Shown: positions 35,326-62,154 of the stretch, piece after piece
Layout of the letters: each line of letters starts with the position of its first letter
Position numbering within the stretch: the stretch's first letter is position 1
Assembly: GCA_964609775.1 (NCBI GenBank)
Contig: CAZSSJ010000002.1
Coordinates: 19,260-83,259 of the forward strand
DNA from: an uncultured Gammaproteobacteria bacterium
GTDB taxonomy: Bacteria; Patescibacteriota; Microgenomatia; JAMCZE01
Direction: 5' to 3'
Length of the DNA stretch: 64,000 nt
Program-made: the position numbers and the translations under genes
The notes under the pieces: model-generated
What the model was told of the DNA's origin: nothing
What the model saw: only the letters and a program-made list of their open reading frames with translations
The model's database searches: none

Positions 35326-36075
35326 ATGTCTAGCAAAAAGCCTAAAGTAATTGTCGTCATGCCGGCATACCACGCCGAAAAAACAATTGAAAAAACCTTT
35401 GCCGAAGTGCCGAAAGGTTTGGTCAATGAGATCATCCTTGTTGACGATGCCGGCGGCGACAAAACCATCGCTATTGCCAAAAAACTGGGAATCACTGTCT
35501 ATCAGCACTCTCACAATTTAGGTTATGGCGGCAACCAGAAAACTTGCTATTGGGAAGCCCTCAAAAGAAATCCCGACGTGGTCGTCATGCTCCATCCCGA
35601 CTATCAATATAATGGCAGCAAGATTAAAGGTCTGGTCGATCCAATTTTAAACGGTGACTATGACATGATGTTCGGCAGCCGAATCAAAAGTCGGGGCATG
35701 GCCCTGACCGGGGGAATGCCCAAGTCAAAATATTTTTCCAACCGCCTCTTCACCCTGTTTGCTAATATTCTCCTTGGCGAGAATCTCTCCGAGTACCTAA
35801 GCGGGCTTCGAGCCTACAGTCGGAAGTGCTTGGAAAGTGTGCCCTACCAAAGATTTTCTGACGACTTTGCTTTTGATCAACAGTTCACCGTTTCCGCCAT
35901 TGCCAAAAATCTTCGTATTGGCGAAATTCCCATCCCGACACGCTATCATGTCGAGCAACACACCCTTCCTTTAATTAGTTTTCGAGGAGTCAAATTTGTT
36001 GTCGAAAGTTACTGGATCATCTTTCTCTATCTTCTCCGAAAAGCAAATGTGTATAAAAGCAAAATTTTCGACTGA
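35326..36075 (+). CDS. GT2, polyprenyl-phosphate mannose/glucose synthase-like (DPM1/Ppm1 type)
   Basis: KVIVVMPAYHAEKTIEKTF…EIILVDDAGGDKTIAIAKKLG…MLHPDYQYNGSKIKGLVDPIL. Confidence 0.7.
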   Translation: MSSKKPKVIVVMPAYHAEKTIEKTFAEVPKGLVNEIILVDDAGGDKTIAIAKKLGITVYQHSHNLGYGGNQKTCYWEALKRNPDVVVMLHPDYQYNGSKIKGLVDPILNGDYDMMFGSRIKSRGMALTGGMPKSKYFSNRLFTLFANILLGENLSEYLSGLRAYSRKCLESVPYQRFSDDFAFDQQFTVSAIAKNLRIGEIPIPTRYHVEQHTLPLISFRGVKFVVESYWIIFLYLLRKANVYKSKIFD

Positions 36076-36081
36076 TCGTTT

Positions 36082-37539
36082 ATGTGGACGAAATTTTCCT
36101 CAGCAGCCTTGTTAATTTTGCTCATCTCCACCTCTCTTCATTTTTACGGCCGATCCTTCACCAACTTTTTCTTCCAGGACGATTTTTTCAATATCACCCT
36201 GTCTCAAAGTCAAAGCATTATTCAATCTTTTAACATTTTTTCTAAGCCGATACTTGACTTCTATTTCTTCCGACCGCTGACGACCCAGCTTTTTTGGGGC
36301 GTGACTTTTCCCGTCTTCGGGTGGAATGTCGCTCCATATCACCTAATCGTATCAATATTTTTTGCCATAAACATATTTTTCATCTATTGGCTATCAACGC
36401 TCCTGACAGACAAAAAGCCCATCGCTCTCTTAACCACATTCCTGTACGCCTTCTCCGCCACGCATTTCCATCGTCTGTTTTTTCTGTCACAGTTCCAAGA
36501 GATCGGCCTGACTACTTTTGTTCTACTGACAATAATATCCTATATTAAAAACAGCAAGCTTTCTTTAGTCTTTTTCATTCTCGCTTTGACAAGCAAGGAA
36601 ACTGCCGTTGTCACTCCAATCTTCCTCCTCGTCTTCAGTGTCCTATCAAGTCGCAAACAATACCGGCTTCTAGCACTGCATTTTCTAATCCTGGGAGTCT
36701 ACTTATTTCTTCGTTTCACCTTTTTTGGTTTTGCCTCTGGGGGCCCGTACACCTACGATTTTAATCCACTCCACGTCATCAATAACTATGTTTGGTACGG
36801 CCTTTGGGCCTTGGGCATCCCGGAGTCTTTCGTCAATTTGAAACTGTTTTTTGTCAACAGATATGATGATCTGGGACAGTGGCAATCGTTCTCGTTTATT
36901 AATCCCGATATATTCACTGCTTTTGGAATCTGGGGCGGGCCAATTATTCTTGTCTTCGCACTTTTGTTGTTAACTCTAATTCTAGCCCTAAACAAAAAAA
37001 ACTGGACCCATTTCTTCCGTCGAGAAAGCATTTTCGCCTCCATGATATTTATCATCTTCCTTTTGCCAGTTGCCTTCTTTCCTTTCCATAAATTTGCCTA
37101 CAGCTTAACACTTCCGGCCATAGGCCTGTCTCTGTTTCTGGCCAACCTACTTATCAATTTTTCTCTGCGTTTCCAAATCTTGTCCCTTGTCTTCTTCATT
37201 GCCCTCTCCTTTTTTACGACTCAATACAATGTTTCCGAGCACTGGGCAGTCAAGAAGGCGATAGTAGCCAAATTGGCTTGGGAATATTTCCGTCAAAACC
37301 ACCCGGAAAACATCACTGCGGACAACATTTATTTTCGAAATACTGACGCGCCCTATTGCTCGATTCTGAAAAATAAATTTAAACCCTCGCAGGAAGTGGC
37401 CTATGGTCTCGGCGGAGCCGATAGCCTCAGGCTTCTCTACAACAACCCAGAGTTGAAAGTTTATTTTGAAGACTTTGACGACAATCATCATTTGATGGCC
37501 GATTCTTTGATGATCGATTCTCGGCAGTTTTTGCCATGA
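36082..37539 (+). CDS. polytopic membrane protein, GT-C-like (ArnT/PMT-like traits), family uncertain
   Basis: FFQDDFFNITLSQ… acidic first loop; about 12 TM helices; …LTSKETAVVTPIFLL; C-terminal soluble tail. Confidence 0.4.
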   Translation: MWTKFSSAALLILLISTSLHFYGRSFTNFFFQDDFFNITLSQSQSIIQSFNIFSKPILDFYFFRPLTTQLFWGVTFPVFGWNVAPYHLIVSIFFAINIFFIYWLSTLLTDKKPIALLTTFLYAFSATHFHRLFFLSQFQEIGLTTFVLLTIISYIKNSKLSLVFFILALTSKETAVVTPIFLLVFSVLSSRKQYRLLALHFLILGVYLFLRFTFFGFASGGPYTYDFNPLHVINNYVWYGLWALGIPESFVNLKLFFVNRYDDLGQWQSFSFINPDIFTAFGIWGGPIILVFALLLLTLILALNKKNWTHFFRRESIFASMIFIIFLLPVAFFPFHKFAYSLTLPAIGLSLFLANLLINFSLRFQILSLVFFIALSFFTTQYNVSEHWAVKKAIVAKLAWEYFRQNHPENITADNIYFRNTDAPYCSILKNKFKPSQEVAYGLGGADSLRLLYNNPELKVYFEDFDDNHHLMADSLMIDSRQFLP

Positions 37540-39206
37540 AAGCCAACACCTTAGCGATCGTTATCATTATTTTCTTAGGGCTTTTTGCCATTCAGGCGCT
37601 CTTCACCCCCGGCTTCTACACGAGCCACGACGGCGCCACCCACGCTGCCCGGATTGCCAACTACTTCCTTGCCCTTGCAGACCACCAGTTTCCCCCCAGG
37701 TGGGCTCCGCTTCTTAATGGCGGGATGGGCTCGCCGATTTTTGTTTACATCTATCCCTTGCCCTATTTTCTCGGCGCGTTAGTTCACGCCATTGGGCTAT
37801 CTTTTACCGACAGTTTTAAAGCCATCCTTGGTCTGGCCTACATTGCTTCCGGAATAACTTTTTATATTTGGATGCGCAAACACTTTGCGGTCTGGTCTTC
37901 TCTTGCAGCGGCAGCAGTTTATCTGTTTGCTCCCTATCGCTTTTCCCTGTTGTTTGTTCGGGCTGCTTTTGCCGAAAGTATTGCCTACACTTTTGTTCCC
38001 CTGGTTTTTTTATCTATCGACCAAATGTTTTCCTCTAAAAATACGCGAAGATCAATTGCCTTCGGAGCAATGTCCACCAACCTTTTGCTACTGTCTCATA
38101 ATCTGGTAGCCTTCATCTTCTTGCCATTAGCCTTTTTGTATTCATTAGTCCTTTTCTGTCAAAGCAAAAAACTGTCAGCACTAATCAACTATTTTCTTTG
38201 CACCATCTTTGGATTTTTAATCTCTGCCTTTATCTACGTCCCGGACTTTCTAGAAAAAAAATACATCCGCTTTGACGAATTGATTAGTTATTATCAGAAT
38301 CACTTCGTCTATTTTTGGCAGTTCCTCCGCTCACCCTGGGACTATGGCTTTTCTTTCCTTGGTCCAGCTGACGCCATGAGTTTTCAAATCGGACTCGGCC
38401 AGCTTCTTGTACTGATTTTCTCACTGGTAATCTTGATCAGAATAATTATCTTCAAGAAGAAAGATAAACACTTCGCCAAGCTGATTTTCTTTTTAACCCT
38501 TTTTGCCGCTGCGGTGCTCTTAATGCTCGAAAGTCCCTTGAGTCGAATCCTCTGGAAAAACATTCCGGGACTCTCAACGATTGACTACCCCTGGCGGCTT
38601 TTGGGCATCACCACCTTTTCTCTGGCTGCTGTTTCAGGCGTTGTCGTCGACCAAAGTGGAAAAAGACTGAAAACGCTCCTGGCGACTGTCATTATTCTCG
38701 GAGTGCTCATTGCCAATCGCCACCATTTGCGCATTAATCAGCAAGTTTTCCTTCCTGATTCCCAATTTCTTTCCTACAGTGGTTCCGCGACCCATCTTGG
38801 CGAGTTTACCCCTGTCACTCGCGCCAGCTCAAAATTCATTCCTTTCCCCGACACCATCCAGGTCGTTTCCGGAAAAGCCACCATCGTCAAGCAAACAGAA
38901 AAGTCTGCAGGTAAAAAGTACCTCATCAATGCCTCGGAAAAGACCAAAATTCGCCTCAACACCCTCTATTTTCCCGGATGGCAAATTGCTCTTGATGGTA
39001 AAGTTCTGCGTTTGGAGACCGATTTCCAAATCACCGGGGACACCAATTTGAAAACTGACGTTGACCAGAGCGGACTTATATACGTCGACGTCTCTAAAGG
39101 TAAGCACGTGTTGACGGCTAAGTTCGCGGAAACTCCGGTGCGCCAGATAGCCGATTTCATGTCTCTCGGGTCGTTTGTTGTAGTATTAATCTTGCTTGTT
39201 ATCTAA
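37536..39206 (+). CDS. COG5617/PTPS-related-type membrane protein, paralogue 3
   Basis: FYTSHDGATHAARIANYFLALADHQFPPRWAPLLNGGMGSPIFVYIYPLPYFLGALVHAIG; C-terminus NTLYFPGWQIALDGKVLRL. Confidence 0.5.
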   Translation: MKANTLAIVIIIFLGLFAIQALFTPGFYTSHDGATHAARIANYFLALADHQFPPRWAPLLNGGMGSPIFVYIYPLPYFLGALVHAIGLSFTDSFKAILGLAYIASGITFYIWMRKHFAVWSSLAAAAVYLFAPYRFSLLFVRAAFAESIAYTFVPLVFLSIDQMFSSKNTRRSIAFGAMSTNLLLLSHNLVAFIFLPLAFLYSLVLFCQSKKLSALINYFLCTIFGFLISAFIYVPDFLEKKYIRFDELISYYQNHFVYFWQFLRSPWDYGFSFLGPADAMSFQIGLGQLLVLIFSLVILIRIIIFKKKDKHFAKLIFFLTLFAAAVLLMLESPLSRILWKNIPGLSTIDYPWRLLGITTFSLAAVSGVVVDQSGKRLKTLLATVIILGVLIANRHHLRINQQVFLPDSQFLSYSGSATHLGEFTPVTRASSKFIPFPDTIQVVSGKATIVKQTEKSAGKKYLINASEKTKIRLNTLYFPGWQIALDGKVLRLETDFQITGDTNLKTDVDQSGLIYVDVSKGKHVLTAKFAETPVRQIADFMSLGSFVVVLILLVI

Positions 39207-39212
39207 CAACCA

Positions 39213-39971
39213 ATGAAACTTTCCGTTGTCCTGGCCACTTTCAACGAGGAACAAAATATTGATCGCTGCCTCAAAGCCGTTTTCAAATGGGCTGACGAAA
39301 TTGTCGTTGTTGACGGTCGTTCCACTGACAAAACCATCGCTATTGCCCGAAAGTTCAAAGCCAGGATCATCGTCACAGATAATCCTCCGATGTTCCACAT
39401 CAATAAACAAAAAGCCATCGACGCGGCGAAAGGTGATTGGGTTTTGCAACTGGACGCTGATGAAGTTGTCACTCCCGAGCTTAAGAAAGAAATTGATTTC
39501 ACAATGAATAGTGATCCCGATGAAAATGGTTTTTGGATTCCCAGAAAAAATTACTTCCTTGGTAAGTTTCTGACTAAAGGGGGGGCCTATCCCGACTACA
39601 CTCTGCGCCTCTATCGCCGGACTAAAGGCCGCCTTCCTTGTAGGAGCGTTCATGAGCAAGCAGTCGTTGAAGGTAAGATCGGCTATCTAAAAAATCCCAT
39701 TTTGCACTATGCCGACCCCACTTTTGGCCGCTACATTGAAAGATTCAACCGCTACACTGATCTAGCCGCTCACAATGTTACCGGAGGCCTGCTGACAAAT
39801 CTTTTGTGGAAACCGCTTTTTGACCCTCTGCAAGGTTTTTTGCTCATCTACTTTCGTCACTTGGGCTTTCTCGACGGCTTTCCAGGATTTATCTGGGCCC
39901 TCTTTTCCGCCCTCAATTTTCCGATTGCATACTTTAAATCAATTGACATCAAAGAGGGGAGAGTGACCTAA
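39213..39971 (+). CDS. glycosyltransferase family 2 (paralogue of 14874 and 18381)
   Basis: MKLSVVLATFNEEQNIDRCLKAVFKWADEIVVVDGRSTDKTIAIARKF…GDWVLQLDADEVVTPELKKEI. Confidence 0.65.
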   Translation: MKLSVVLATFNEEQNIDRCLKAVFKWADEIVVVDGRSTDKTIAIARKFKARIIVTDNPPMFHINKQKAIDAAKGDWVLQLDADEVVTPELKKEIDFTMNSDPDENGFWIPRKNYFLGKFLTKGGAYPDYTLRLYRRTKGRLPCRSVHEQAVVEGKIGYLKNPILHYADPTFGRYIERFNRYTDLAAHNVTGGLLTNLLWKPLFDPLQGFLLIYFRHLGFLDGFPGFIWALFSALNFPIAYFKSIDIKEGRVT

Positions 39972-39972
39972 C

Positions 39973-41022
39973 TTGCGCCTTGGTTTTGTCCGGCCACCGA
40001 ATGCGGGGAATTTGATAAGAGGTGTCGGTACTTACGCTGATCACTTATATATTGCCTTGCAGAATGCTGGGGTGGGGGTGCATTGGCTTTCCCCGACATA
40101 CCCGGTGCTAAACGCCAGTAATTTCGACCTGATCCATTATCCCTATTTTGACCTCTTCTTTCTGACACAACCAATAACACTAGGTAAGTCAGTTATCACT
40201 GTTCATGATTTGACACCCTTAGTTCTTCCGAAATATTTCCCTGCAGGACCAAGAGGCCATCTTAAGTGGCAAGTCCAGAAAAATATCCTCCGAACTTCTT
40301 CGGCCGTCATCACCGTTTCCCAGGCTTCTAAAAAAGACATTGTCAACATAACTGGTTTGAAACCAGAAAAAATAATAGTTACTTACGAAGCAGCAGGCGA
40401 AAGTTTCCGGAAGCTAACCAGCTTGGCCCAGCTAAAGACCGTTAAAAATAAATTGGCCTTACCTGAAAAGTTTCTGCTTTATGTTGGTGACGTCAACGCC
40501 AATAAAAATATTCCCATGTTGCTTGAGGCCTTTGCGCAGTTTAAAAAAACTTCTCTCGGGGGAACCTTTTCCCTCGTGCTTGCCGGTGGAGCTTTCTTTA
40601 AAAAAGATCTTTTAGAGACAGAAAATATCCGGAGGTTGATCGAAGAGCTCAAGATTAAAAACGCCGTCATCCTTCCCGGTTTCGTGGAAACAAGCGACCT
40701 CGTCGGCCTCTATAATCTCGCCTCCGCCTACATTCAACCATCGCTCTATGAAGGTTTTGGTCTGCCGGTCTTGGAAGCCATGGCTTGCGGCACTCCGGTG
40801 ATCTGCGGACGAAACAGCAGCCTTCCTGAAGTGGCCGGGGACGCTGCTATCTATACAGACGTGACTAACGTAGCTGAATTTGCCCACACTATTACCTCGG
40901 TGGTCAGCTCTCCCAGGGATAAGTACACGCCAAAATGTCTTGCTCAGGCGGCCAAATTCAGCTGGGATAAAACCGCCAAGGAAACAATCGCTGTCTATGA
41001 GAAAGTTCTTAAAAACAAATAG
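39973..41022 (+). CDS. GT4 glycosyltransferase (TTG start inferred)
   Basis: …LYVGDVNANKNIPMLLEAF…PSLYEGFGLPVLEAMACGTPVICGRNSSLPEVAGDAAIY. Confidence 0.7.
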   Translation: MRLGFVRPPNAGNLIRGVGTYADHLYIALQNAGVGVHWLSPTYPVLNASNFDLIHYPYFDLFFLTQPITLGKSVITVHDLTPLVLPKYFPAGPRGHLKWQVQKNILRTSSAVITVSQASKKDIVNITGLKPEKIIVTYEAAGESFRKLTSLAQLKTVKNKLALPEKFLLYVGDVNANKNIPMLLEAFAQFKKTSLGGTFSLVLAGGAFFKKDLLETENIRRLIEELKIKNAVILPGFVETSDLVGLYNLASAYIQPSLYEGFGLPVLEAMACGTPVICGRNSSLPEVAGDAAIYTDVTNVAEFAHTITSVVSSPRDKYTPKCLAQAAKFSWDKTAKETIAVYEKVLKNK

Positions 41023-42100: not shown

Positions 42101-42103
42101 CAC

Positions 42104-51367: not shown

Positions 51368-51379
51368 CGCCATCTGATA

Positions 51380-55242: not shown

Positions 55243-55256
55243 TATACTTTCTAAAG

Positions 55257-56462
55257 ATGCGTAAGATAGGTTATCTAGAGGGGTTAAGAGGCATCGCTGC
55301 GTTCATTGTCGTCCTTAATCATTTTGCCGTATCCTTTTTCCCGGCATTGTATAACGGAAAGATAACCCAGGCTCATACCTTATCCTGGCTAGAATCGGCT
55401 ATCGCTAGTAGCCCTATTAATTTTTTTTATAATGGCAACTTTGCCGTCGCTGTTTTCTTTGTTCTTAGCGGCTTTGTCCTCTCATACAACTATTTCAAAA
55501 CTCTACGTGTAGAGGTAATTGTGTCCGGAGCAATTAAACGATATTTCCGGCTAGTGATTCCGGTTGCCTTTACTGTCCTGTTGGCCTACTTATTCATGAA
55601 ATTTTCATTTTTCTTTAACAAACAGGCCGGAGAGATAAGTTATTCGACTTGGTGGCTATCAAGATATTGGGAATTTGATACCAATCTAATAGATGTTTTA
55701 AATACCGCATTTATTAGAGTGCTCTTTTTTGGTGATGTTAGATTTAATCACATATTGTGGACGATGCGTTATGAGTTTTTTGGATCCATAATTGTATTCA
55801 CGACGTTATTTATCTTTCGACAAAGAAGGTATCGATATGCGGCTTATATCATTCTTAGTTTATGGTTTTTAAGGTCATACTATCTTCCATTTATCCTTGG
55901 TTTGGTTCTCTCCGACCTATATAGTCTTAAAAGATACACAGTTAAACTAAATAAAGATTTAAAAAGAATTTGTCTTCTATTGCTGGGATTTGTTGGTTTA
56001 TATTTAAGTTCCTGTCCCAGTGGAGCCCCAATAAGAAATACAATCTATGCCCCCTTGTTTATCTTGGATCGTTATCCCTACACCTTTTATCACATCTTAG
56101 GGGCTTTAATGCTCATGATTACTCTTTTAAATTGGACAGCGCTGCAAAACTTATTTTCAAACAGACTATTTATCTTTTTGGGCAGAATATCGTTTTCTAT
56201 GTATTTGCTTCATTTGATAGTGATTGGTTCCTTATCCAGTCTACTGTTAATTATTTTGACTCACTATTTTACCTATCCTGTTGCAGCTATGCTCGTCTTT
56301 GTGATATCGATGCCGGTCTTAGTATTTACCTCCTATTTAATGTACGTGCTGGTGGATAGTAAGGGTACCATCCTATCTAAAATTATTTGTCGTTGGCTCA
56401 CTGGGTCAATCAGGCGGCAACAATTCGCCAACCAGTTTGTCCTTGGTGGCAAAAAATCATAA
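55257..56462 (+). CDS. acyltransferase family 3 (membrane O-acyltransferase)
   Basis: MRKIGYLEGLRGIAAFIVVLNHFAVSFFPALYNG… is the canonical Acyl_transf_3 N-terminus; about 10 TM helices. Confidence 0.7.
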   Translation: MRKIGYLEGLRGIAAFIVVLNHFAVSFFPALYNGKITQAHTLSWLESAIASSPINFFYNGNFAVAVFFVLSGFVLSYNYFKTLRVEVIVSGAIKRYFRLVIPVAFTVLLAYLFMKFSFFFNKQAGEISYSTWWLSRYWEFDTNLIDVLNTAFIRVLFFGDVRFNHILWTMRYEFFGSIIVFTTLFIFRQRRYRYAAYIILSLWFLRSYYLPFILGLVLSDLYSLKRYTVKLNKDLKRICLLLLGFVGLYLSSCPSGAPIRNTIYAPLFILDRYPYTFYHILGALMLMITLLNWTALQNLFSNRLFIFLGRISFSMYLLHLIVIGSLSSLLLIILTHYFTYPVAAMLVFVISMPVLVFTSYLMYVLVDSKGTILSKIICRWLTGSIRRQQFANQFVLGGKKS

Positions 56463-56471
56463 AATAGATTT

Positions 56472-57284
56472 ATGGAAATAATCATTCGACCAAAAAGTGT
56501 CTTCAATCTAGATTTTAAAGAAATCTGGCATTATCGCGAACTTTTTTACGTCTTTGCCTGGCGAGATATTAAAGTCCGTTATAAACAAACAGTTTTAGGC
56601 ATCTCGTGGGCTCTTTTTCAACCTCTAGTTACGACTGGAATATTTAGCATTTTTTTTGGAAAAATTGCCAAAATCCCTTCTGACCATATCCCATACCCGT
56701 TATTTGTTCTTACTGGATTGGTTTTTTGGAGCTTTTTTTCAAATAGTGTTACGGCGGCAAGTCAAAGCATGGTCGCCAGTGAAAACATCATCAAAAAAGT
56801 CTACTTTCCACGCCTGATTATTCCACTTTCCTCAATTGTGACAGCCGGGCTTGACTTTCTAATTTCCTTTTTGATGCTATTACTAGTAATGGTTTACTAC
56901 CGGTATTTTCCTCAATTTACCAGCCTGCTAGTTCTCCCAGTGTTGTTGCTTACTTTAATTCTCACTGCTGGGGGAATCGGTTTATTTACATCAGCGATTA
57001 ATGTCAAATATCGCGATGTCAGATATATCCTGCCGTTTTTCATCCAAATTGGGCTCTTCGTTACTCCCATTATCTATCCAATAAGTGTTATCTTGGACTA
57101 CCGTAAATGGCTTCTGATTCTCAATCCTCTGACCTCAGTAATCGAAACAGCGCGTGCCCTCTATTCGGGCAAACCAATAAATTATTTTCTCATCTCTTTA
57201 GGCTTTGCGATTTCGGTCGTCATATTTTCTCTCGGCCTTTACTATTTTCGCAAGACCGAAGCTTTCTTTGCTGACGTCGCTTAG
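56472..57284 (+). CDS. ABC-2 type polysaccharide/teichoic-acid exporter permease (Wzm/TagG-like)
   Basis: ELFYVFAWRDIKVRYKQTVLGISWALFQPLVTTGIFSIFFGKIAK; six TM helices. Confidence 0.7.
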   Translation: MEIIIRPKSVFNLDFKEIWHYRELFYVFAWRDIKVRYKQTVLGISWALFQPLVTTGIFSIFFGKIAKIPSDHIPYPLFVLTGLVFWSFFSNSVTAASQSMVASENIIKKVYFPRLIIPLSSIVTAGLDFLISFLMLLLVMVYYRYFPQFTSLLVLPVLLLTLILTAGGIGLFTSAINVKYRDVRYILPFFIQIGLFVTPIIYPISVILDYRKWLLILNPLTSVIETARALYSGKPINYFLISLGFAISVVIFSLGLYYFRKTEAFFADVA

Positions 57285-57293
57285 ACTTTTGCT

Positions 57294-58574
57294 ATGGACA
57301 ATATTATTGAAGTCAGTGATCTATCTAAAAAGTACCGTCTCGGCCAAGAACAGCGCTATTACACGCTACGGGACAGCATTGCGTCTTTGTCTTCGCTTCC
57401 CAAACAGCTTTGGGGGGTGTGGGGAAATTTTAGCGAAATTCTTGAAAAAAATGAATTTTGGGCTCTTAAAGACGTTTCTTTTTCGGTCAAACGAGGCGAA
57501 GTTGTTGGAGTCATCGGGAAAAACGGTGCTGGTAAAAGCACTCTGCTTAAAATTCTGTCTCGCATCACTCCTCCAACCTATGGTCAAGCTCGACTGCGTG
57601 GTCGTGTAGCTAGCCTTCTGGAGGTTGGAACTGGTTTTAACCAGGAATTAACAGGCCGCGAAAATATCTTTCTCAACGGTGCTATCTTAGGCATGAGCCG
57701 CCAAGAGGTAAGAAGAAAATTCGACGAGATAGTCGCTTTTGCCGAAGTCGAAAGGTTCATCGACACGCCAGTGAAACGTTATTCTTCAGGGATGTATTTG
57801 CGCCTTGCCTTTGCCGTCGCCGCCCATTTGGAACCAGAAATACTTCTGGTTGACGAAGTCCTTTCCGTTGGTGATGCCCAATTTCAAGAAAAGAGTTTGG
57901 GAAAAATGCGCGAAATTACCCAGCAGGAAGGCAGGACAATAATATTTGTCAGTCACAACATGGGTGCAATTAACGCTCTTTGCAACCGGTGTTTATTGCT
58001 TGAACAAGGGCAGACTGTCGCTTTCGGCGAAACCGCCGAGGTCGTCACCAAATACTTATCGTCGAAAAGAAAATCAGTCAACAATATTTGGAAGATTCCG
58101 AAAAAACCGTCCGTCCCATTTTATGTTTCTAAAATGTGGTTAACTGACGAAAACGGGAAAGCTATTTCTCAAATAGAGATGGGAGAAAATGTTAACCTCA
58201 ATCTAGAAGCTAAAATTACTCAGGAAATCAGGGATGGAGTCCTTGCCGCTCTCGTCGCTACGGAAGGATCACCGCTTCTTTATATCTATGATACTGACAA
58301 CTCCCCAGAACTGCGTCGGAAGCGTCGGGTAGGTAAATATTTTGAACAGGTTCTCCTGCCCACATCCATATTTAAAGAAGGCGACTACACGATCAGTATA
58401 ATGATCGGCCACGGACAAGATAATCTCACCGACCAAAACTGTGAAATTTCCTTCAAGATCGTTAACACCAAAAGGGATTTGACACACCTCAGTTTCCGTA
58501 AAAACAGACTAGGATTTCTTTATCAGGAAACCCACTGGGAGGTGCGCCAACTTGGACGTCAAAAAGAGTACTAA
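57294..58574 (+). CDS. ABC exporter ATP-binding protein (Wzt/TagH-like) with a C-terminal extension of about 170 aa
   Basis: Walker A GKNGAGKST; signature YSSGMYLRLAFAVA; Walker B ILLVDEVLSVGD; then a non-NBD C-terminal domain (…VSKMWLTDENGKAISQIEMGENVNLNLEAKI…ISFKIVN). Confidence 0.75.
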   Translation: MDNIIEVSDLSKKYRLGQEQRYYTLRDSIASLSSLPKQLWGVWGNFSEILEKNEFWALKDVSFSVKRGEVVGVIGKNGAGKSTLLKILSRITPPTYGQARLRGRVASLLEVGTGFNQELTGRENIFLNGAILGMSRQEVRRKFDEIVAFAEVERFIDTPVKRYSSGMYLRLAFAVAAHLEPEILLVDEVLSVGDAQFQEKSLGKMREITQQEGRTIIFVSHNMGAINALCNRCLLLEQGQTVAFGETAEVVTKYLSSKRKSVNNIWKIPKKPSVPFYVSKMWLTDENGKAISQIEMGENVNLNLEAKITQEIRDGVLAALVATEGSPLLYIYDTDNSPELRRKRRVGKYFEQVLLPTSIFKEGDYTISIMIGHGQDNLTDQNCEISFKIVNTKRDLTHLSFRKNRLGFLYQETHWEVRQLGRQKEY

Positions 58575-59520
58575 CCACCTTGTCCGGTACTTAGACAGGG
58601 CCTTTGGAGTCAGATCAGTTTTTCCTCTAAACCCGGTCAGAAAAAGGGCCAGAAAGGAACTTCTTAGACGGCTATCATCCGGAATTTATAAATTCCAGGA
58701 GATAAATTGTCCCTCCTGTGCCAGTCATAGATTTACAATCTTGGCTAAACAGGACATGTACGCCCTGCCGCATCTTGTGGTCATTTGCCTCTGTTGCTCG
58801 CTGGTTTATACGCGACAAAGATTGACGGAAAAATCTTTGTCAAACTTTTATCAAAATCTCTACCAGCAGTTAGACCGGGGTAGGGATTTGCCAAAAGAAG
58901 AATATTTCCGTTTAGAATCTAAAAAAGGACAAGACATTTTCCACTATATGTTCAATAACTCTTTGCTACCTCCTAAAAACACACTCATTGTTGAAATTGG
59001 TTGTGGTGTTGGAGGCGTACTTTATCCATTCCGAAAGTACGGTTATGAGATAATAGGTTGCGATTTCAATCAAGACTATATCAATTTTGGCATCACCACC
59101 CGCGGTCTTAATCTAAAAGCTGGAGGATTGAAAGAGATATCAAAAGTCCTCTTTAAAAGCAAAAAGAAAGTAGGTCTAGTCATTTATGAACAAGTATTTG
59201 AACATCTACCTGACCCCAAAAAAGAATTAACACAACTTAAAAAAATTATGACATCAAACACTTTACTCTATCTTGGCGTTCCAGGAATTAAAAATATTCG
59301 TCATCACTACCAGGAAAATTTTCGTGCATTCCTTCAATTTCCCCATTTGACCTATTTTGAACTGTCAACTCTTAAATCTCTGCTTGCTAGTCAGGGATTT
59401 CAATTATTAAAGGGGACTGAGAGAATTAGAGGAGTTTTTAAACTGGGTCAGAAAAGAAATATCCTCCTCACCAACCCGGATGGGATTATAACCTATATTC
59501 AAAATTTGAAATTTATCTAA
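58552..59520 (+). CDS. SAM-dependent methyltransferase with an N-terminal Cys4 zinc-ribbon
   Basis: CPSCASH…CLCCSLVY, then LIVEIGCGVGGVLYPFRKYGYEIIGCDFN…VFEHLPDPKKEL. Confidence 0.55.
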   Translation: MDVKKSTNHLVRYLDRAFGVRSVFPLNPVRKRARKELLRRLSSGIYKFQEINCPSCASHRFTILAKQDMYALPHLVVICLCCSLVYTRQRLTEKSLSNFYQNLYQQLDRGRDLPKEEYFRLESKKGQDIFHYMFNNSLLPPKNTLIVEIGCGVGGVLYPFRKYGYEIIGCDFNQDYINFGITTRGLNLKAGGLKEISKVLFKSKKKVGLVIYEQVFEHLPDPKKELTQLKKIMTSNTLLYLGVPGIKNIRHHYQENFRAFLQFPHLTYFELSTLKSLLASQGFQLLKGTERIRGVFKLGQKRNILLTNPDGIITYIQNLKFI

Positions 59521-59532
59521 TTTGCCATCCCT

Positions 59533-60258
59533 ATGGCTTTGGAAAAGCAAGACCTAACGCTGCTCCTTAGATTAAGAAAACAATATCCCGAAGGAAAAAA
59601 TCTGTGTATTTTAGGCGATTGCACTTTTCATTTTACCGATGAAACACTCAATCGAAAGTGTGGAATTAAATTTAAAGGGCAAGCAAAACAGACGACTTTA
59701 AAGTCTTTTAGCCAAGCCTATGGCTTCGAAACAGCGGTGACTATAGATATTGACGGCAATCCAACCCTTAAATTCGATTTACAAAAGAAGCTCCCTCGGA
59801 ATTTGATCGGAAAATTTGATTGGGTTATTGATGCTGGCACGTTATTCTGGTGTTTTGATATTGCCGGGATTTGGGAAAATATCCTCCTGCTTCTTAAGCC
59901 TCACGGTTGTGTGTTTCACATTGATGCCTTAACCGGCTATTTTGGCCGGGGTTATTATTCTTTGCATCCACGGTTGTTTAGCGATTTCTATAGCCAGAAT
60001 GGCCTAAAAATTATTACGTTCGCTTACCGTCTCAGGCCACCATCCCTTAATATTATCGAAAAAAGGTTCCGGAGACTTGAGTGGCAACCTTTTCCGCCAA
60101 GCCACATGTTTTTAAAAAATGCGGATAAATTTAATATGGAATTTTCTGATAAAAACACCACGGACCCGTCAATTGTGCCAAATGATGCCGTTTTGGCCTG
60201 TTTCGCGGTAAGGGCGAAAAAAGTGCCTTTCCAAACCGTTTTACCGTCAAATATTTAA
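59533..60258 (+). CDS. hypothetical protein, possibly a degenerate methyltransferase-like Rossmann fold
   Basis: NLCILGDCTF…FDWVIDAGTLFWCFD…LLLKPHGCVF; only weak resemblance. Confidence 0.3.
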   Translation: MALEKQDLTLLLRLRKQYPEGKNLCILGDCTFHFTDETLNRKCGIKFKGQAKQTTLKSFSQAYGFETAVTIDIDGNPTLKFDLQKKLPRNLIGKFDWVIDAGTLFWCFDIAGIWENILLLLKPHGCVFHIDALTGYFGRGYYSLHPRLFSDFYSQNGLKIITFAYRLRPPSLNIIEKRFRRLEWQPFPPSHMFLKNADKFNMEFSDKNTTDPSIVPNDAVLACFAVRAKKVPFQTVLPSNI

Positions 60259-60276
60259 TTACTTGAGTTAATACCT

Positions 60277-60915
60277 GTGCCAAATAACGCCGATATTCTT
60301 ATTGTTGTAGCTCACCCGGACGACGAGTCCTTATGGTTTGGCGAAGGAATTCACCAGCTGGTAGCTAGGGGCAAAAATATAATTGTCCTTTGCCTCTCAG
60401 GTGGATCAAATCCAATCCGAAGCGCCGAATTTAAAAAAGCCTGCTTAAGACTCAAAGTTAAAGGCAAGATGCTGAACAATCCTGATCGAGGGATGCCGCG
60501 TTTGCAGACTAGCCCAAGTGACCTAGATTTGGTCGATTGGCATCCCGAATATGTGATAACTCATGCACCGTGGGGAAATGAACGACATCATCCCCACCAC
60601 CAACAGTGCTTTCAAATCTCCCGGTCATGGGCTTTAAAAGGGGGAATTCCGTTTGGTTATTTCTCGGAAAAAAAACCTCTCATTCTGAATCCTTTAATAG
60701 AAACGATCGAGTTTTCAGTCAACCGTCCGAGGAAAAACGCCCTTTTGTCCATCTATGATTCAGAAATTTCCGGACTTCGCGACTACGAAGCCTACCACCA
60801 CGACAAGGAATATCTAATTATCGAGCGAAAATATTTTTCCCGCATTTCCAAGATATTCACTAGGCTTTGCCAAACCTTAAGTTCTATTTTCGAATCGCGA
60901 GGACCACGAACGTGA
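60277..60915 (+). CDS. LmbE/PIG-L family N-acetylglucosaminyl deacetylase (GTG start)
   Basis: ILIVVAHPDDESLWFGEGI…VLCLSGGS…: the HPDDE zinc-binding signature. Confidence 0.65.
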   Translation: MPNNADILIVVAHPDDESLWFGEGIHQLVARGKNIIVLCLSGGSNPIRSAEFKKACLRLKVKGKMLNNPDRGMPRLQTSPSDLDLVDWHPEYVITHAPWGNERHHPHHQQCFQISRSWALKGGIPFGYFSEKKPLILNPLIETIEFSVNRPRKNALLSIYDSEISGLRDYEAYHHDKEYLIIERKYFSRISKIFTRLCQTLSSIFESRGPRT

Positions 60916-60966
60916 GTTCGAGGCGTTGCGAGAGAAAAGAAACTGGCGAAGCCAAAACGAAAGAGA

Positions 60967-60986
60967 CCTCGGGCGTAAGCCCGAGG
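60967..60986. terminator. perfect 8-bp GC-rich hairpin (CCTCGGGC-GTAA-GCCCGAGG) in a 97-bp intergenic gap; possible terminator or RNA structural element
   Basis: Inverted repeat read directly; no U-tract follows it. Confidence 0.25.
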
Positions 60987-61011
60987 AGTTTCATACAATT
61001 AAAATAATCAG

Positions 61012-62154
61012 ATGCCGTGCATATTAAAAAAACTGGCAAGGAAAAGTCCGGGTATAGTCACTTTTACTCATAACGAAGCCCTATATGGTTTACCGGCGAG
61101 ATCGCGTAAGGTTAAAAACTACATTACCCAAACCTCTGGGAAAAGATGGATTTATGGCGTTCATCTTCAGGGCAGCTTGAAACATCTGAAGGAGTGGCCA
61201 CTTGAGCCCTGGCAAGCATTCATTTCTTGGTCGAACCCAAAGTCCCCATTTCTGTCAAATGTCCCCACCGAAAAACTAATTGATATTAATCACATTAATC
61301 TTCTACCCGAATTTGGGTTTACCCCACGCCCTAAGATTTGGGACATCATCATTATTTCTCGGCCATCAAAAATTAAAAGAATTCAGGAATCAGTTTTCAT
61401 CATTAAAAAATTAATGTTGAAAAGACCTGAGTTAAAAACAATTTTTATCGTTCCAACTCCCAGTCGGCAAGCCAAAGACATTGACCGGAGTTTTTTTGAA
61501 TTGCCCAAAAGGTTATTTTCTACTAAAGAGATGAAAAATACATCATTTATTGTTTCACCGACTGAAAGTTTCGGAAATTTTCCCGTTTCCTCAGAACTAA
61601 TATCAAAATTGATTTCACAGTCAAAATTTTTACTGTTAACTTCTCACCGTGAAGGTGGGCCACGGGCGATTGGCGAAGCGCTTCTGGCGGGAACACCCTG
61701 CATTATATCTAAAAATTTAGACACGGGAATCGTGGGCGTTTTTGACAATAAAAATACTCTCACAATCGACGACAATATCGATCTAGCCACGCAGCAAATT
61801 AATCAAGGCTTGCAAAATTACTCTTCATTTAAAATTGATGATAAAAAAATCTGCCGCTTTTTCAGTGAGCGGCATAATAAGCCAATATTTAAAGCCAAAT
61901 TATCAAAACTACTAACACAAATGAGTTACCAGGTGGCGGGAGAATGGTATCTTGAAGATTTGTCTTTTCGGCTCTGCGGTCACGGTCGAAAATTCAGTTT
62001 TCAATCCCTGGACGACGACCGACAATTCTTTTTTTGGTTTGATAAGATTACTTCAGTAAATCCATATGATGAAGATGGTCTGATTTATCACCCCGAATCA
62101 TTATCAGACTATGCTCTTCGGAAACTAAAAAGGTTATGGCAGACAAGACGCTGA
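61012..62154 (+). CDS. glycosyltransferase, GT4-like C-terminal domain
   Basis: …FLLLTSHREGGPRAIGEALLAGTPCIISKNLDTGIVGV…. Confidence 0.45.
   Translation: MPCILKKLARKSPGIVTFTHNEALYGLPARSRKVKNYITQTSGKRWIYGVHLQGSLKHLKEWPLEPWQAFISWSNPKSPFLSNVPTEKLIDINHINLLPEFGFTPRPKIWDIIIISRPSKIKRIQESVFIIKKLMLKRPELKTIFIVPTPSRQAKDIDRSFFELPKRLFSTKEMKNTSFIVSPTESFGNFPVSSELISKLISQSKFLLLTSHREGGPRAIGEALLAGTPCIISKNLDTGIVGVFDNKNTLTIDDNIDLATQQINQGLQNYSSFKIDDKKICRFFSERHNKPIFKAKLSKLLTQMSYQVAGEWYLEDLSFRLCGHGRKFSFQSLDDDRQFFFWFDKITSVNPYDEDGLIYHPESLSDYALRKLKRLWQTRR

What the first reader, a model, noticed from the sequence alone, without database searches (positions are those of the whole stretch)
35326..62154. A second module: an ABC-transporter-dependent glycan pathway with methylation and acylation
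About eight cytoplasmic GT4/GT2 enzymes, four SAM-methyltransferases, an acyltransferase-3, a LmbE deacetylase and a Wzm/Wzt exporter sit in one co-directional run. This is the signature of a glycan built in the cytoplasm on a lipid carrier, decorated and terminated by methylation, and exported by an ABC transporter. It lies next to a Wzx/GT-C periplasmic system, so two glycan routes meet in one island.
Basis: partly seen in the sequence, partly recalled or inferred. Interest (0 to 1): 0.7.

Follow-up and report, generated by a model that had tools for sequence, protein, structure and literature searches.

The report
ABC-exported capped glycan module, boundaries revised
A groundwater ultra-small (CPR, Microgenomates) bacterium carries a real ABC-transporter pathway for a methylated, acetylated surface sugar polymer, but the true module is only the right-hand 12.8 kb of the flagged region, and its exporter travels with a previously undescribed set of "chain-capping" genes.

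Summary
The region 35326-62154 holds 27 co-directional genes: 8 GT4, 4 GT2, 4 methyltransferase-fold proteins, an Acyl_transf_3, a PIG-L/LmbE deacetylase and Wzm/Wzt. The exporter is polysaccharide-type. Its best solved relative is the Aquifex aeolicus O-antigen WzmWzt, and it has a C-terminal carbohydrate-binding domain (CBD). The refutation test therefore fails.

The interpretation needs three corrections.

1. The left half (35326-48354) holds five polytopic GT-C-like proteins, two polyprenyl-phosphate-sugar synthase-like GT2s and a GacJ-type DUF2304. By paralogy and codon composition it belongs with the upstream GT-C system.
2. The discrete ABC module is 49356-62154. Its GC3 is 0.40 against 0.50 in the flanks (p=3e-7).
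3. This CBD type co-occurs in 7 of 7 other loci with homologues of the Pfam-less methyltransferase-fold protein, PIG-L and the divergent GT4. A zinc-ribbon methyltransferase and PhyH are present in 5 of 7. The polymer-building GT4s, MT1/2 and the acyltransferase are not shared.

I read that conserved set as a new chain-capping cassette (inferred). No priming enzyme or ligase lies within -10 kb to +4.5 kb of the window. Sialic-acid-like sugar genes lie just downstream. Verdict: a known kind of pathway, a new variant.

The parts
35326..36075 (+). GT2a, polyprenyl-phosphate-sugar synthase-like. Belongs to the GT-C donor supply, not to the ABC polymer.
   Evidence: Pfam Glycos_transf_2. Best NCBIfam hits are AglJ, dolichyl-P-hexose transferase and PpgS. 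Paralogue of 42104 and 22554.
36082..37539 (+). Polytopic membrane protein, 485 aa, family unknown. GT-C-like by context only.
   Evidence: No Pfam hit even at E 0.5. At least 7 hydrophobic segments.
37536..39206 (+). GT-C-type membrane glycosyltransferase (PTPS_related).
   Evidence: Pfam PF10131, 52.9 bits. 9 TM. Paralogue of upstream 11676 (3e-52) and 8613 (4e-48).
39213..39971 (+). GT2b.
   Evidence: Pfam. Close paralogue of upstream GT2s 14874 (4e-56) and 18375 (1e-33).
39973..41022 (+). GT4a, cytoplasmic.
   Evidence: Pfam Glycos_transf_1, 115.6 bits. No TM.
40880..42100 (+). GT-C-like, PIG-V/PMT_2-like. The listed TTG start overlaps GT4a by 143 nt, so the real start is probably later.
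   Evidence: Pfam PF04188, 32.6 bits. 9 TM.
42104..42784 (+). GT2c, PpgS/GacI-like polyprenyl-phosphate-HexNAc synthase candidate.
   Evidence: NCBIfam PpgS 4.9e-43, full length, below the equivalog cut-off.
42785..43129 (+). DUF2304 small membrane protein (GacJ/Rv3632 family). Activator partner of the preceding GT2.
   Evidence: Pfam PF10066, 75.7 bits. 3 TM. Family role from Rush et al., 10.1101/180810.
43129..45302 (+). GT4b (43129-44235) and GT4c (44232-45302), cytoplasmic.
   Evidence: Pfam. No TM.
45235..46365 (+). Polytopic membrane protein, 376 aa, CPR-restricted family, function unknown.
   Evidence: No Pfam hit. 8 TM. 12 homologue clusters; the two that carry an organism name are from Gottesmanbacteria and Patescibacteria; none has a Pfam domain.
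46352..47593 (+). GT-C (PMT_2).
   Evidence: Pfam. 8 TM. Paralogue of 23183.
47590..48354 (+). GT2d, ordinary cytoplasmic EpsE/TuaG-like GT2.
   Evidence: Pfam. NCBIfam EpsE, 119 bits.
48342..49349 (+). Enolase-superfamily enzyme (MR_MLE). Role unknown. Last gene with host-like GC3.
   Evidence: Pfam MR_MLE_C, 96.7 bits. NCBIfam hits weak and mixed. GC3 0.49.
49356..55242 (+). Genome-specific polymer-building block: GT4d 49356-50591, MT1 50588-51367, GT4e 51380-52555, MT2 52530-53150, GT4f 53147-54190, GT4g 54187-55242.
   Evidence: Pfam. Low GC3 of 0.37-0.445. No MT2, GT4e or GT4g match and only short weak MT1, GT4d and GT4f matches (24-34% over 49-160 residues, one locus) in the cassette-bearing loci.
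55257..56462 (+). Acyl_transf_3 membrane O-acyltransferase.
   Evidence: Pfam PF01757, 77.5 bits. 8 TM.
56472..57284 (+). Wzm, ABC-2 permease.
   Evidence: Pfam PF01061. PDB best hits 9qfx, 6m96, TarG. NCBIfam galactan Wzm and KpsM, both below cut-off.
57294..58574 (+). Wzt: NBD about residues 1-255, plus a C-terminal beta-sandwich carbohydrate-binding domain about residues 265-390.
   Evidence: PDB 8dku/7k2t, E 1e-67. AF2 model pLDDT 83. Foldseek top 7 hits are full-length A. aeolicus Wzt at 1e-37, against 1e-25 for NBD-only chains. Pfam Wzt_C 24 bits, below the cut-off of 30.4. CBD alone matches other Wzt_C proteins at 1e-10 to 1e-34.
58552..59520 (+). MT3: SAM-methyltransferase with an N-terminal CPSC...CLCC zinc-ribbon-like segment. 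Overlaps the wzt stop by 23 nt. Candidate terminator.
   Evidence: Pfam Methyltransf_23. N-terminal residues 13-68 are conserved in the L091 homologue, so the start is TTG 58552, not the gene callers' 58756. Homologues at 32-42% in 5 of 7 cassette loci.
59533..60258 (+). Pfam-less class I methyltransferase-fold protein ('unk241'). Invariant ILGDC in place of the GxGxG motif.
   Evidence: Family size: 67 representatives at E<=1e-30 among 1.84 billion. Present in 7 of 7 loci with this CBD type.
60277..60915 (+). PIG-L/LmbE-family de-N-acetylase.
   Evidence: Pfam PF02585, 60.2 bits. Homologue in 7 of 7 cassette loci.
61012..62154 (+). GT4h: divergent GT4-like GT-B with an invariant E214-x7-E222. 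Candidate cap transferase.
   Evidence: Pfam 27.6 bits. Profile hits to PglH, BshA, WaaB and PglA at E 0.006-0.15. Alignment A3. 39-46% identity in 7 of 7 cassette loci.
62136..63015 (+). EamA/DMT transporter split into two frames (62136-62444 and 62368-63015). Probable frameshift.
   Evidence: Pfam EamA. Sequence read directly. The same split is called in independent assemblies.
63007..63588 (-). HAD phosphatase, KDN-9-P phosphatase/KdsC-like.
   Evidence: NCBIfam 71.7 and 66.5 bits.
63560..64000 (-). 3' part of a PseF/KdsB-like CMP-sugar cytidylyltransferase, cut by the window end. PhyH, a NeuB-AP_endonuc_2 fusion and a 457-aa unknown follow outside the window.
   Evidence: L001:16267-16968, 17067-17909, 17926-19818.

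Best explanation
The window comes from the CPR bacterium 'Microgenomates group bacterium GW2011_GWA1_48_10'. The flagged region contains two different things.

(a) 35326-48354 is the tail of a very large extracytoplasmic glycosylation system. Polyprenyl-phosphate-sugar synthases (GT2a; GT2c with its DUF2304 partner) make lipid-linked donors. GT-C enzymes use these donors outside the membrane. Some cytoplasmic GT4/GT2 genes are interleaved.

(b) 49356-62154 is a compact, compositionally distinct ABC-transporter-dependent module.
- Four GT4s (d-g) with MT1 and MT2 build a methylated polymer on a lipid carrier in the cytoplasm.
- An Acyl_transf_3 O-acylates the polymer.
- A conserved cassette (MT3, the MT-fold protein, PIG-L and GT4h, helped by PhyH downstream) installs a non-reducing-end cap. 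My proposal for the cap chemistry is a HexNAc added by GT4h, de-N-acetylated by PIG-L, then methylated.
- The Wzt carbohydrate-binding domain recognises that cap and licenses export through Wzm/Wzt.
- The exported chain is then probably a substrate for the neighbouring GT-C enzymes, as in streptococcal group A carbohydrate or mycobacterial arabinogalactan.

Shown here: domain and fold identities, the boundaries, and the co-variation of the CBD with the cassette. Inferred: the cap chemistry, the order of steps, the coupling to the GT-C enzymes and the final acceptor.
For: - Organism.
- Exporter identity. CBD fold.
- Rule that CBD-bearing Wzt proteins require a cap (methyl, methyl-phosphate or Kdo): PMC9445017.
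- Module boundary: the 13 genes at 49356-62154 have mean GC3 0.402, against 0.499 for 50 flanking genes (Mann-Whitney p=2.9e-7).
- Left half linked to the upstream system by paralogy: 37536~11676 at 3e-52; 39213~14874 at 4e-56. It also carries PpgS-like GT2 plus DUF2304.
- Cassette, first observation: the window CBD finds matches in only 5 of 85 loci, and the 4 best are exactly those carrying unk241, PIG-L and GT4h.
- Cassette, prediction test: three further Wzt proteins were chosen only for CBD similarity, and all three carry the cassette.
- Controls: a Wzt with 67% NBD but 31% CBD identity lacks the cassette. Two Patescibacteria loci with 66-68% NBD identity have no CBD match and no cassette. 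None of 80 GTDB loci carries the cassette, though one (L060) has a lone weak unk241 match at 24%.
- The polymer genes (AT3, MT1/2, GT4d-g) are not conserved in those loci. This matches the usual layout of a conserved export/termination unit plus variable GTs.
- MT3 overlaps the wzt stop.
- GT4h keeps the EX7E motif.
- A second Microgenomates-group genome (Ca. Shapirobacteria, L010) also places Wzm/Wzt directly after four polytopic proteins (two with DUF2142 or weak PMT_2 hits), with PPS-like GT2s and an AT3 nearby.
Against: - No priming phosphoglycosyltransferase (PF00953 or PF02397), WaaL/Wzy_C ligase or LCP enzyme lies in the window, the 10 kb upstream or the 4.5 kb downstream. Carrier and acceptor are therefore unknown.
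- The cassette could serve a role other than capping, such as making a reducing-end adaptor or tailoring an internal residue.
- In the other cassette loci an epimerase / NTP-transferase / epimerase trio accompanies the cassette. That trio is missing here.
- The CBD scores below the Pfam Wzt_C cut-off and has no sequence-level PDB hit on its own.
- The loci were found by homology searches, so sampling is not random, and only 7 cassette loci were examined.
- Coupling of the ABC product to the GT-C enzymes rests on gene proximity in two genomes only.
- Low GC3 could reflect expression level or amino-acid usage rather than a separate origin.
Confidence: 0.62

Rival explanations
1. The whole 35326-62154 run is one ABC-dependent pathway, with all about 12 GT4/GT2 enzymes building a single cytoplasmic polymer that is terminated simply by O-methylation. 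It is separate from the neighbouring Wzx/GT-C system.
For: One co-directional, tightly packed run begins after a divergent regulator gene. Three GT4s and GT2d in the left half are soluble and could work on the same chain. Methyl caps are the best-documented CBD ligands.
Against: There are five polytopic/GT-C proteins, two lipid-sugar synthase-like GT2s and a GacJ-type DUF2304 inside the left half. Those genes are paralogous to upstream GT-C-system genes. GC3 steps down sharply at 49356. The genes that track the CBD include a deacetylase and a GT, not only methyltransferases.
Confidence: 0.12
2. There are two independent products. The ABC module makes its own capped polymer, and the Wzx/GT-C island makes or decorates a different glycoconjugate. 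Adjacency reflects only a 'glycan island', not a shared pathway.
For: The ABC block is compositionally distinct. Its cassette occurs elsewhere without any GT-C neighbours. Glycan gene clusters often aggregate.
Against: A second Microgenomates-group genome repeats the GT-C / PPS-GT2 / Wzm-Wzt / AT3 adjacency. Known monoderm systems couple an ABC-exported backbone to GT-C decoration. No second acceptor-specific ligase is evident.
Confidence: 0.22
3. The ABC-exported, methyl-capped chain is a protein-linked glycan on the S-layer or pili, as in Geobacillus S-layer glycan synthesis (from memory, not tested here). PMT-type GT-C enzymes would act as O-glycosyl or oligosaccharyl transferases onto proteins.
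For: Many PMT/PMT_2-family proteins are in the island. There is no WaaL or LCP in reach. From general knowledge, CPR cells show S-layers and pili.
Against: No Wzy_C-type O-oligosaccharyltransferase was found and no target protein gene was identified. PMT_2 hits are generic for GT-C enzymes, including lipoglycan enzymes such as the GT87 and MptA_B families present here.
Confidence: 0.12
4. The ABC pair is not a glycan exporter of the O-antigen type. It would instead be a teichoic-acid (TarGH), group 2 capsule (KpsMT) or drug (DrrAB-like) transporter.
For: The NCBIfam TagH model scores highest on the NBD (201.9 bits). KpsM and DrrA models also hit.
Against: All those hits are far below the equivalog cut-offs. 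No TagB/TagF-type or KpsC/S/E/D-type domain appeared in any Pfam scan. A CBD is present and the best full-length structural match is WzmWzt. The neighbours are GTs, methyltransferases and an AT3.
Confidence: 0.03

Closest known systems
Capped ABC-transporter-dependent O-polysaccharide pathways with CBD-bearing Wzt (E. coli O8/O9a with WbdD; Aquifex aeolicus WzmWzt; Klebsiella O12 / Raoultella with a beta-Kdo cap)
   Same: Adjacent Wzm-Wzt genes. Wzt has an NBD plus a C-terminal beta-sandwich CBD. Cytoplasmic GT4s are present. Methyltransferase genes abut wzt. The layout is a conserved export/termination unit with variable polymer GTs.
   Different: The host is a CPR bacterium, not a classical LPS producer. 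No WecA or WaaL is in reach. There is no WbdD-like kinase or coiled-coil ruler and no GT99. The CBD is a divergent clade: below the Pfam cut-off, with no sequence-level PDB hit alone. The putative terminator set is MT3 + MT-fold protein + PIG-L + divergent GT4 (+ PhyH). I found no description of this set; an LmbE + Wzt literature search returned nothing relevant.
Streptococcal group A carbohydrate (Gac) / rhamnose-rich cell-wall polysaccharide clusters, and three-component extracytoplasmic glycosylation systems
   Same: An ABC-exported backbone sits beside a GT2 lipid-sugar synthase with a DUF2304 partner (GacI/GacJ-like), a Wzx-family flippase and GT-C transferases in one locus.
   Different: No rhamnose (Rml) genes or GacB/C-type rhamnosyltransferases were identified. 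There are about 21 GT-C-like genes in the window instead of one. The exporter here carries a CBD. The GacO/TagO-type primer and LCP ligase were not found.
Mycobacterial arabinogalactan / LM-LAM assembly
   Same: GT4 cytoplasmic steps, a polyprenyl-P-sugar synthase (PpgS-like with a DUF2304/Rv3632-like partner), a Wzm/Wzt-type exporter, and many GT-C enzymes including GT87- and MptA_B-family hits.
   Different: Scores are far below the NCBIfam equivalog cut-offs (80 against 380 for Wzm; 188 against 400 for Wzt). No Glf/GlfT, Emb or DPA-pathway genes were seen. The mycobacterial Wzt chains found here are NBD-sized (259-263 residues) and align only to the window's NBD.
Legionella pneumophila serogroup 1 O-antigen locus (polylegionaminic acid)
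   Same: wzm/wzt next to an Acyl_transf_3 O-acetyltransferase (lag-1), a methyltransferase and NeuB-family nonulosonic-acid genes (PMC3766260). Here AT3, methyltransferases, a NeuB-like synthase, a PseF-like CMP-transferase and a KdsC-like phosphatase are adjacent.
   Different: Homology to the Legionella proteins was not tested, because no sequences were available. Here five GT4s argue for a heteropolymer. The NeuB is fused to an AP_endonuc_2 domain. The PIG-L / GT4h / MT-fold cassette is not described for Legionella.

Membership tests
ABC-transporter-dependent glycan pathway with CBD-bearing Wzt | ABC-2 (type V) permease gene adjacent to its NBD gene | tested here: met
   PF01061, 69.8 bits, at 56472-57284, 9 nt before wzt. 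PDB best hits are Wzm and TarG. The Wzm-Wzt adjacency is conserved in most of the 30 related loci tabulated.
ABC-transporter-dependent glycan pathway with CBD-bearing Wzt | NBD of the Wzt/TagH clade rather than a drug or peptide exporter | tested here: met
   PDB 8dku E 1e-67; TarH/TagH 1e-54 to 1e-58. NCBIfam TagH 202 bits and galactan Wzt 188 bits, against DrrA 131 bits.
ABC-transporter-dependent glycan pathway with CBD-bearing Wzt | C-terminal jelly-roll carbohydrate-binding domain (Wzt_C) | tested here: met
   The AF2 beta-sandwich at 265-390 has pLDDT about 90. Foldseek gives full-length A. aeolicus Wzt at 1e-37 over 420-431 columns, against 1e-25 for NBD-only chains. The CBD alone matches Wzt_C-annotated homologues at 1e-10 to 1e-34. 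Caveats: Pfam 24.1 bits is below the 30.4 cut-off, and the CBD alone has no PDB sequence hit.
ABC-transporter-dependent glycan pathway with CBD-bearing Wzt | Dedicated chain-terminating (capping) enzyme encoded with the transporter | tested here: inconclusive
   Candidates MT3, the MT-fold protein, PIG-L and GT4h co-vary with the CBD type in 7 of 7 loci. Their activity and the existence of a cap are not shown.
ABC-transporter-dependent glycan pathway with CBD-bearing Wzt | Polyprenyl-phosphate priming enzyme (WecA/TagO PF00953 or WbaP PF02397) | tested here: not met
   None among the ORFs scanned in the window (all + strand ORFs of 100-120 aa or more, plus two - strand genes), nor in the gene tables for 10 kb upstream and 4.5 kb downstream. 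The rest of the genome could not be searched.
ABC-transporter-dependent glycan pathway with CBD-bearing Wzt | Ligase for the final acceptor (WaaL/Wzy_C or LCP) | tested here: not met
   No PF04932 or PF03816 hit in the same scans.
Three-component extracytoplasmic glycosylation (GtrB/GacI-type synthase + flippase + GT-C) | GT2 polyprenyl-phosphate-sugar synthase | tested here: met
   42104: PpgS model 4.9e-43, full length. 35326 and 22554: AglJ/DPM/PpgS-like. 15771: PgfS 249 bits and ArnC 151 bits. All are below the equivalog cut-offs.
Three-component extracytoplasmic glycosylation (GtrB/GacI-type synthase + flippase + GT-C) | DUF2304 (GacJ/Rv3632) partner next to the synthase | tested here: met
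   PF10066, 75.7 bits, at 42785-43129, abutting GT2c. Family role.
Three-component extracytoplasmic glycosylation (GtrB/GacI-type synthase + flippase + GT-C) | Flippase for the lipid-linked donor | tested here: inconclusive
   A Wzx-like Polysacc_synt_3 gene lies at 13423-14877 and a split EamA gene at 62136-63015. No GtrA-family hit. Substrate unknown.
Three-component extracytoplasmic glycosylation (GtrB/GacI-type synthase + flippase + GT-C) | GT-C fold transferase | tested here: met
   PTPS_related, PIG-V/PMT_2 and PMT_2 hits inside the region. YfhO, PMT_2 and GT87 hits upstream. TM counts. The fold itself was not modelled.
Wall teichoic acid export (TarGH) | TagB/TagF-type glycerol/ribitol-phosphate polymerase and TagD/TarIJ genes | tested here: not met
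   No Glyphos_transf or related hit in any Pfam scan.
Group 2 capsule export (KpsMT) | KpsC/KpsS Kdo-linker enzymes and KpsE/KpsD | tested here: not met
   No such domains found. KpsM model 40.6 bits against a cut-off of 300.
Nonulosonic-acid (sialic-acid-like) CMP-sugar pathway | NeuB-type synthase, cytidylyltransferase and phosphatase | tested here: met
   NeuB_NnaB 300.6 bits (cut-off 399.65), PseF 116 bits, KDN-9-P phosphatase 71.7 bits. All are below the equivalog cut-offs, so the sugar identity is unknown. Most of this lies outside the window.

The most novel reading that the evidence does not exclude
The Wzt CBD clade found here defines an undescribed chain-termination system for ABC-exported glycans. 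The cap would be an amino sugar added by a divergent GT4, de-N-acetylated by a PIG-L enzyme, methylated by two unusual methyltransferases and possibly oxidised by a PhyH dioxygenase. The cassette is mobile between phyla. In this ultra-small CPR bacterium it licenses export of a backbone that is then elaborated by more than 20 GT-C enzymes. The result would be a lipoglycan or wall polymer of mycobacterial-scale complexity, and a candidate determinant of host attachment.
Probability: 0.25. Interest if true: 0.8.

Novelty: new variant of a known kind. Interest (0 to 1): 0.55.

Why it matters
CPR bacteria are mostly uncultured episymbionts with tiny genomes, and their surface chemistry is essentially unknown. 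This locus shows one of them investing well over 70 kb in surface glycan assembly.

The locus separates into parts that can be tested. One is a standard-looking ABC export core. Its carbohydrate-binding domain type co-occurs with a specific, previously unannotated gene set across unrelated organisms. That gives glycobiologists a concrete prediction: a new cap chemistry and its reader domain. It can be tested by heterologous expression without culturing the organism.

The work also provides a bioinformatic marker set (the CBD clade, the Pfam-less MT-fold family, PIG-L and the divergent GT4) for finding the same system elsewhere.

Tried and rejected
- Drug, teichoic-acid and capsule exporter readings: rejected on profile and structure comparisons and on absent partner genes.
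- CBD alone against PDB sequences: no meaningful hit. The fold had to be tested by modelling instead.
- Priming enzyme, ligase and LCP: not found in the reachable 78 kb.
- The first upstream look-up failed because of a wrong start codon. It succeeded from ATG 382.
- Synteny of the whole module in 80 GTDB species representatives: only Wzm-Wzt is shared.
- GT4h as a PseG/NeuC-like hydrolase: considered, but it keeps the GT4 EX7E motif, and its only (weak) profile hits are GT4 transferases.
- Promoter and terminator scan: counts equal chance, so uninformative.
- 36082 and 45235: no Pfam family and no paralogue. 45235 is a CPR-only family. A Wzy or ligase role is neither supported nor excluded.
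- Literature searches for this genome name and for LmbE + Wzt returned nothing relevant.
- The AlphaFold-database fold library was unavailable.
- No same-species genome is among the GTDB representatives.

Full report
**Source and setting.** Exact-sequence look-ups place the window on the 140-kb contig UY21_C0001 of the metagenome-assembled genome 'Microgenomates group bacterium GW2011_GWA1_48_10' (proteins KKU92399-KKU92417). The same sequence was assembled independently from several aquifer metagenomes. Two independent assemblies are identical to the window over 16.7 kb. No same-species genome is among the GTDB representatives.

**Check of the observation.** The region 35326-62154 is one + strand run of 27 ORFs, with overlaps or gaps of at most 96 nt. 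Pfam gives:
- eight GT4 proteins and four GT2 proteins;
- three SAM-methyltransferases;
- Acyl_transf_3, ABC2_membrane, ABC_tran with a sub-threshold Wzt_C, and PIG-L.

- 37536 (PTPS_related), 40880 (PIG-V/PMT_2-like) and 46352 (PMT_2);
- 36082 and 45235, which have no recognisable family.

**The exporter.**
- Wzt's best solved relative is the full-length A. aeolicus O-antigen Wzt (E 1e-67). TarH/TagH and the mycobacterial galactan Wzt follow.
- Wzm's best relatives are the corresponding permeases.
- NCBIfam ranks the TagH and galactan-Wzt models well above DrrA. Nothing reaches an equivalog cut-off.
- The C-terminal 170 residues have no PDB hit by sequence when searched alone, and score 24 bits against a Wzt_C cut-off of 30.4.
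- Full-length homologues at 47-53% identity mostly carry PF14524.
- The isolated domain matches those homologues at 1e-10 to 1e-34.
- The AlphaFold model shows a confident beta-sandwich.
- Foldseek places seven full-length A. aeolicus Wzt chains first, at about 1e-37 over 420-431 columns. NBD-only chains score about 1e-25.

**Where the module really begins.**
- GC3 is about 0.50 for genes from the window start to 49349.
- It falls to about 0.40 for the 13 genes at 49356-62154.
- It returns to about 0.5 from 62368 onward (means 0.402 and 0.499; Mann-Whitney p=2.9e-7).

Genes in the left half are tied to the upstream system:
- 37536 is a close paralogue of 11676 and 8613.
- GT2b (39213) is a close paralogue of 14874 and 18375.
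- 46352 is a paralogue of 23183.
- GT2a and GT2c group with 22554.

GT2c matches the PpgS model over its full length (4.9e-43). It is followed directly by a DUF2304 protein. That is the GacI/GacJ and PpgS/Rv3632 arrangement: a polyprenyl-phosphate-HexNAc synthase with its activator, which supplies a GT-C enzyme acting outside the membrane (10.1101/180810). So 35326-48354 is best read as the tail of the extracytoplasmic GT-C system.

That GT-C system is very large. The window holds about 21 polytopic GT-C-like genes: 16 upstream of 34478 and 5 inside the region. Eighteen have family or paralogy support. Six more polytopic GT-C-like genes (five with PMT_2 or MptA_B hits, one without a family), a GT2 and a methyltransferase lie in the 10 kb before the window.

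**A conserved cassette around the exporter.** Homologues of the 241-aa MT-fold protein, PIG-L and the divergent GT4 (61012) lie after the closest full-length Wzt homologue (L088). The same genes appear in three loci that were reached through the MT-fold family. In all three, a Wzm-Wzt pair lies beside or within about 7 kb of the MT-fold gene (L090-L092).

I then split Wzt into NBD and CBD.
- The NBD is 50-68% identical in all 85 loci held at that point.
- The CBD found a match in only five loci. The four best (24-39% identity) are exactly the cassette loci.

As a prediction test, I ranked 119 Wzt homologues by CBD similarity and looked up the next three: P0022, P0025 and P0023. All three carry the MT-fold protein, an MT3-like methyltransferase, PIG-L, the GT4h-like protein and PhyH.

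Controls:
- P0026 (NBD 67%, CBD 31%) lacks the cassette.
- Two Patescibacteria loci with 66-68% NBD identity also lack it.
- None of the 80 GTDB loci carries the cassette; one (L060) has a lone weak MT-fold-protein match at 24%.

The polymer-side genes (AT3, MT1, MT2, GT4d-g, MR_MLE) have no convincing homologues in the cassette loci; one locus (L094) gives only short weak GT4d, GT4f and MT1 matches. The pattern is a conserved export/termination unit joined to genome-specific polymer GTs.

**Details of the cassette proteins.**
- MT3 starts at TTG 58552 and overlaps the wzt stop codon. Residues 13-68, which include a CPSC...CLCC motif, are conserved in homologues. Gene callers placed the start at 58756.
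- GT4h keeps an invariant E-x7-E. Its only profile hits are GT4 transferases: PglH, BshA, WaaB and PglA.
- The MT-fold family is rare: 67 representatives at E<=1e-30 among 1.84 billion. A wider superfamily has about 2000 members at E<=1e-10.

**Mechanism proposed.** CBD-bearing Wzt transporters export only chains whose non-reducing end carries a cap (methyl, methyl-phosphate or Kdo). The CBD binds that cap (PMC9445017). By analogy, and given the co-variation above, I propose the following sequence:
1. GT4d-g, with MT1 and MT2, build a methylated chain on a lipid carrier.
2. The Acyl_transf_3 O-acylates it.
3. GT4h adds a terminal HexNAc.
4. PIG-L removes the N-acetyl group.
5. MT3 and/or the MT-fold protein methylate the residue, with PhyH possibly modifying it further.
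6. The CBD reads this cap and Wzm/Wzt exports the chain.

A GT4 paired with a PIG-L enzyme is the known logic of GlcNAc transfer followed by de-N-acetylation in GPI, mycothiol, bacillithiol and aminoglycoside pathways. That point is from memory and is a lead, not a test. Steps 3-5 are inference.

A sialic-acid-like pathway lies directly downstream: a KdsC/KDN-9-P-phosphatase-like HAD, a PseF-like cytidylyltransferase, and a NeuB fused to AP_endonuc_2. CMP-transferase genes are enriched in cassette loci (4 of 5 against 3 of 80; Fisher p=8e-5). A nonulosonic acid could therefore be a component of the chain or the cap itself.

**Coupling to the GT-C enzymes.** Coupling is suggested by adjacency here. 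It is also suggested by a second Microgenomates-group genome (Ca. Shapirobacteria, L010). There, four large polytopic proteins (one DUF2142, one weak PMT_2, two without a Pfam hit) and PPS-like GT2s sit immediately before Wzm-Wzt, with an AT3, a methyltransferase and GT4s after it. This matches the group A carbohydrate and three-component paradigms. It remains an inference.

**What is missing.** No WecA/TagO or WbaP-type primer, no WaaL/Wzy_C and no LCP is present from 10 kb upstream to 4.5 kb downstream of the window. There are no TagB/F, KpsC/S/E/D or Glf/GlfT genes either. The locus therefore cannot be filed as teichoic acid, group 2 capsule or mycobacterial galactan. The epimerase / NTP-transferase / epimerase trio that accompanies the cassette in other loci is absent here.

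**Verdict.** The thing itself is a known kind of system (capped, ABC-dependent glycan export). It has a new variant of the termination unit, an unusual host and an unusual partnership with a very large GT-C array. Interest 0.55.

Noticed in passing
window 1-34478, and L087:1-10000 (the 10 kb upstream of the window): Extreme density of GT-C-type membrane glycosyltransferases. The window holds 16 polytopic GT-C-like genes upstream of the finding (4 YfhO, PTPS_related, PMT_2, GT87). Six more (PMT_2, MptA_B family, one without a family) lie in the 10 kb before the window. The window itself begins inside a methyltransferase gene (bases 1-393). The glycan island therefore exceeds 74 kb in an organism expected to have a genome of about 1 Mb.
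   Followed up: partly
window 34475-35122 (-): The only minus-strand gene splitting the island encodes a PaaX_M/Cas2-like-domain protein, a putative regulator. It is divergent from the run that starts at 35326 and is separated from it by a 203-nt gap.
   Followed up: no
window 62136-63015: An EamA/DMT transporter is split into two overlapping frames (102 aa and 215 aa). Reading through near 62410 would restore a typical two-domain EamA protein. The split is present in independent assemblies. It may be a pseudogene or a shared sequencing error. Because ArnE/F-type flippases are EamA-like, it could have been a lipid-sugar flippase.
   Followed up: partly
window 58552-58756: Public gene calls start the methyltransferase after wzt at 58756, leaving a 181-nt 'gap'. 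Homologues conserve the upstream 56 residues, including a CxxC...CxCC motif. The real start is therefore TTG 58552, overlapping wzt.
   Followed up: yes
L001:17926-19818 (about 3.9-5.8 kb past the window end); also L091:2585-4831 and L096:12720-14966: A NeuB-type nonulosonic-acid synthase is fused to an AP_endonuc_2 (xylose-isomerase-like TIM barrel) domain. The fusion recurs next to CBD-bearing Wzt genes in unrelated organisms. The function of the fusion is unknown.
   Followed up: partly
window 48342-49349: An enolase-superfamily (MR_MLE) gene sits between the GT-C part and the ABC module. Its best, weak matches are dipeptide epimerase, OSBS and N-acyl-amino-acid racemase. This is unusual content for a glycan locus, and it has no counterpart in related loci.
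   Followed up: no
window 45235-46365: A 376-aa, 8-TM protein belongs to a small family of 12 clusters with no Pfam domain. The only two clusters that carry an organism name are CPR (Gottesmanbacteria and a Patescibacteria-group bacterium). It is a possible CPR-specific polymerase, ligase or GT-C.
   Followed up: partly
window 18375-19187: This GT2 gene has an outlying GC3 of 0.354 among upstream genes averaging about 0.50. That resembles the low-GC3 ABC block. It is a paralogue of 39213 and 14874.
   Followed up: no
L010:1387-13794 (Candidatus Shapirobacteria MAG, JBAYIT010000002.1): A second Microgenomates-group genome shows the same overall layout: four large polytopic proteins (one DUF2142, one weak PMT_2, two with no Pfam hit), PPS-like GT2s, Wzm-Wzt with a divergent C-terminal domain, an Acyl_transf_3, a methyltransferase and GT4s. 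This suggests a lineage-typical arrangement.
   Followed up: partly
L088, L092, L093, L095 (upstream of wzm): Cassette-bearing loci in other organisms are preceded by a MarR/HTH_24 regulator. In L088 and L092 a NusG-family paralogue is also present, hinting at operon-specific antitermination. No such genes precede the module in the window.
   Followed up: no
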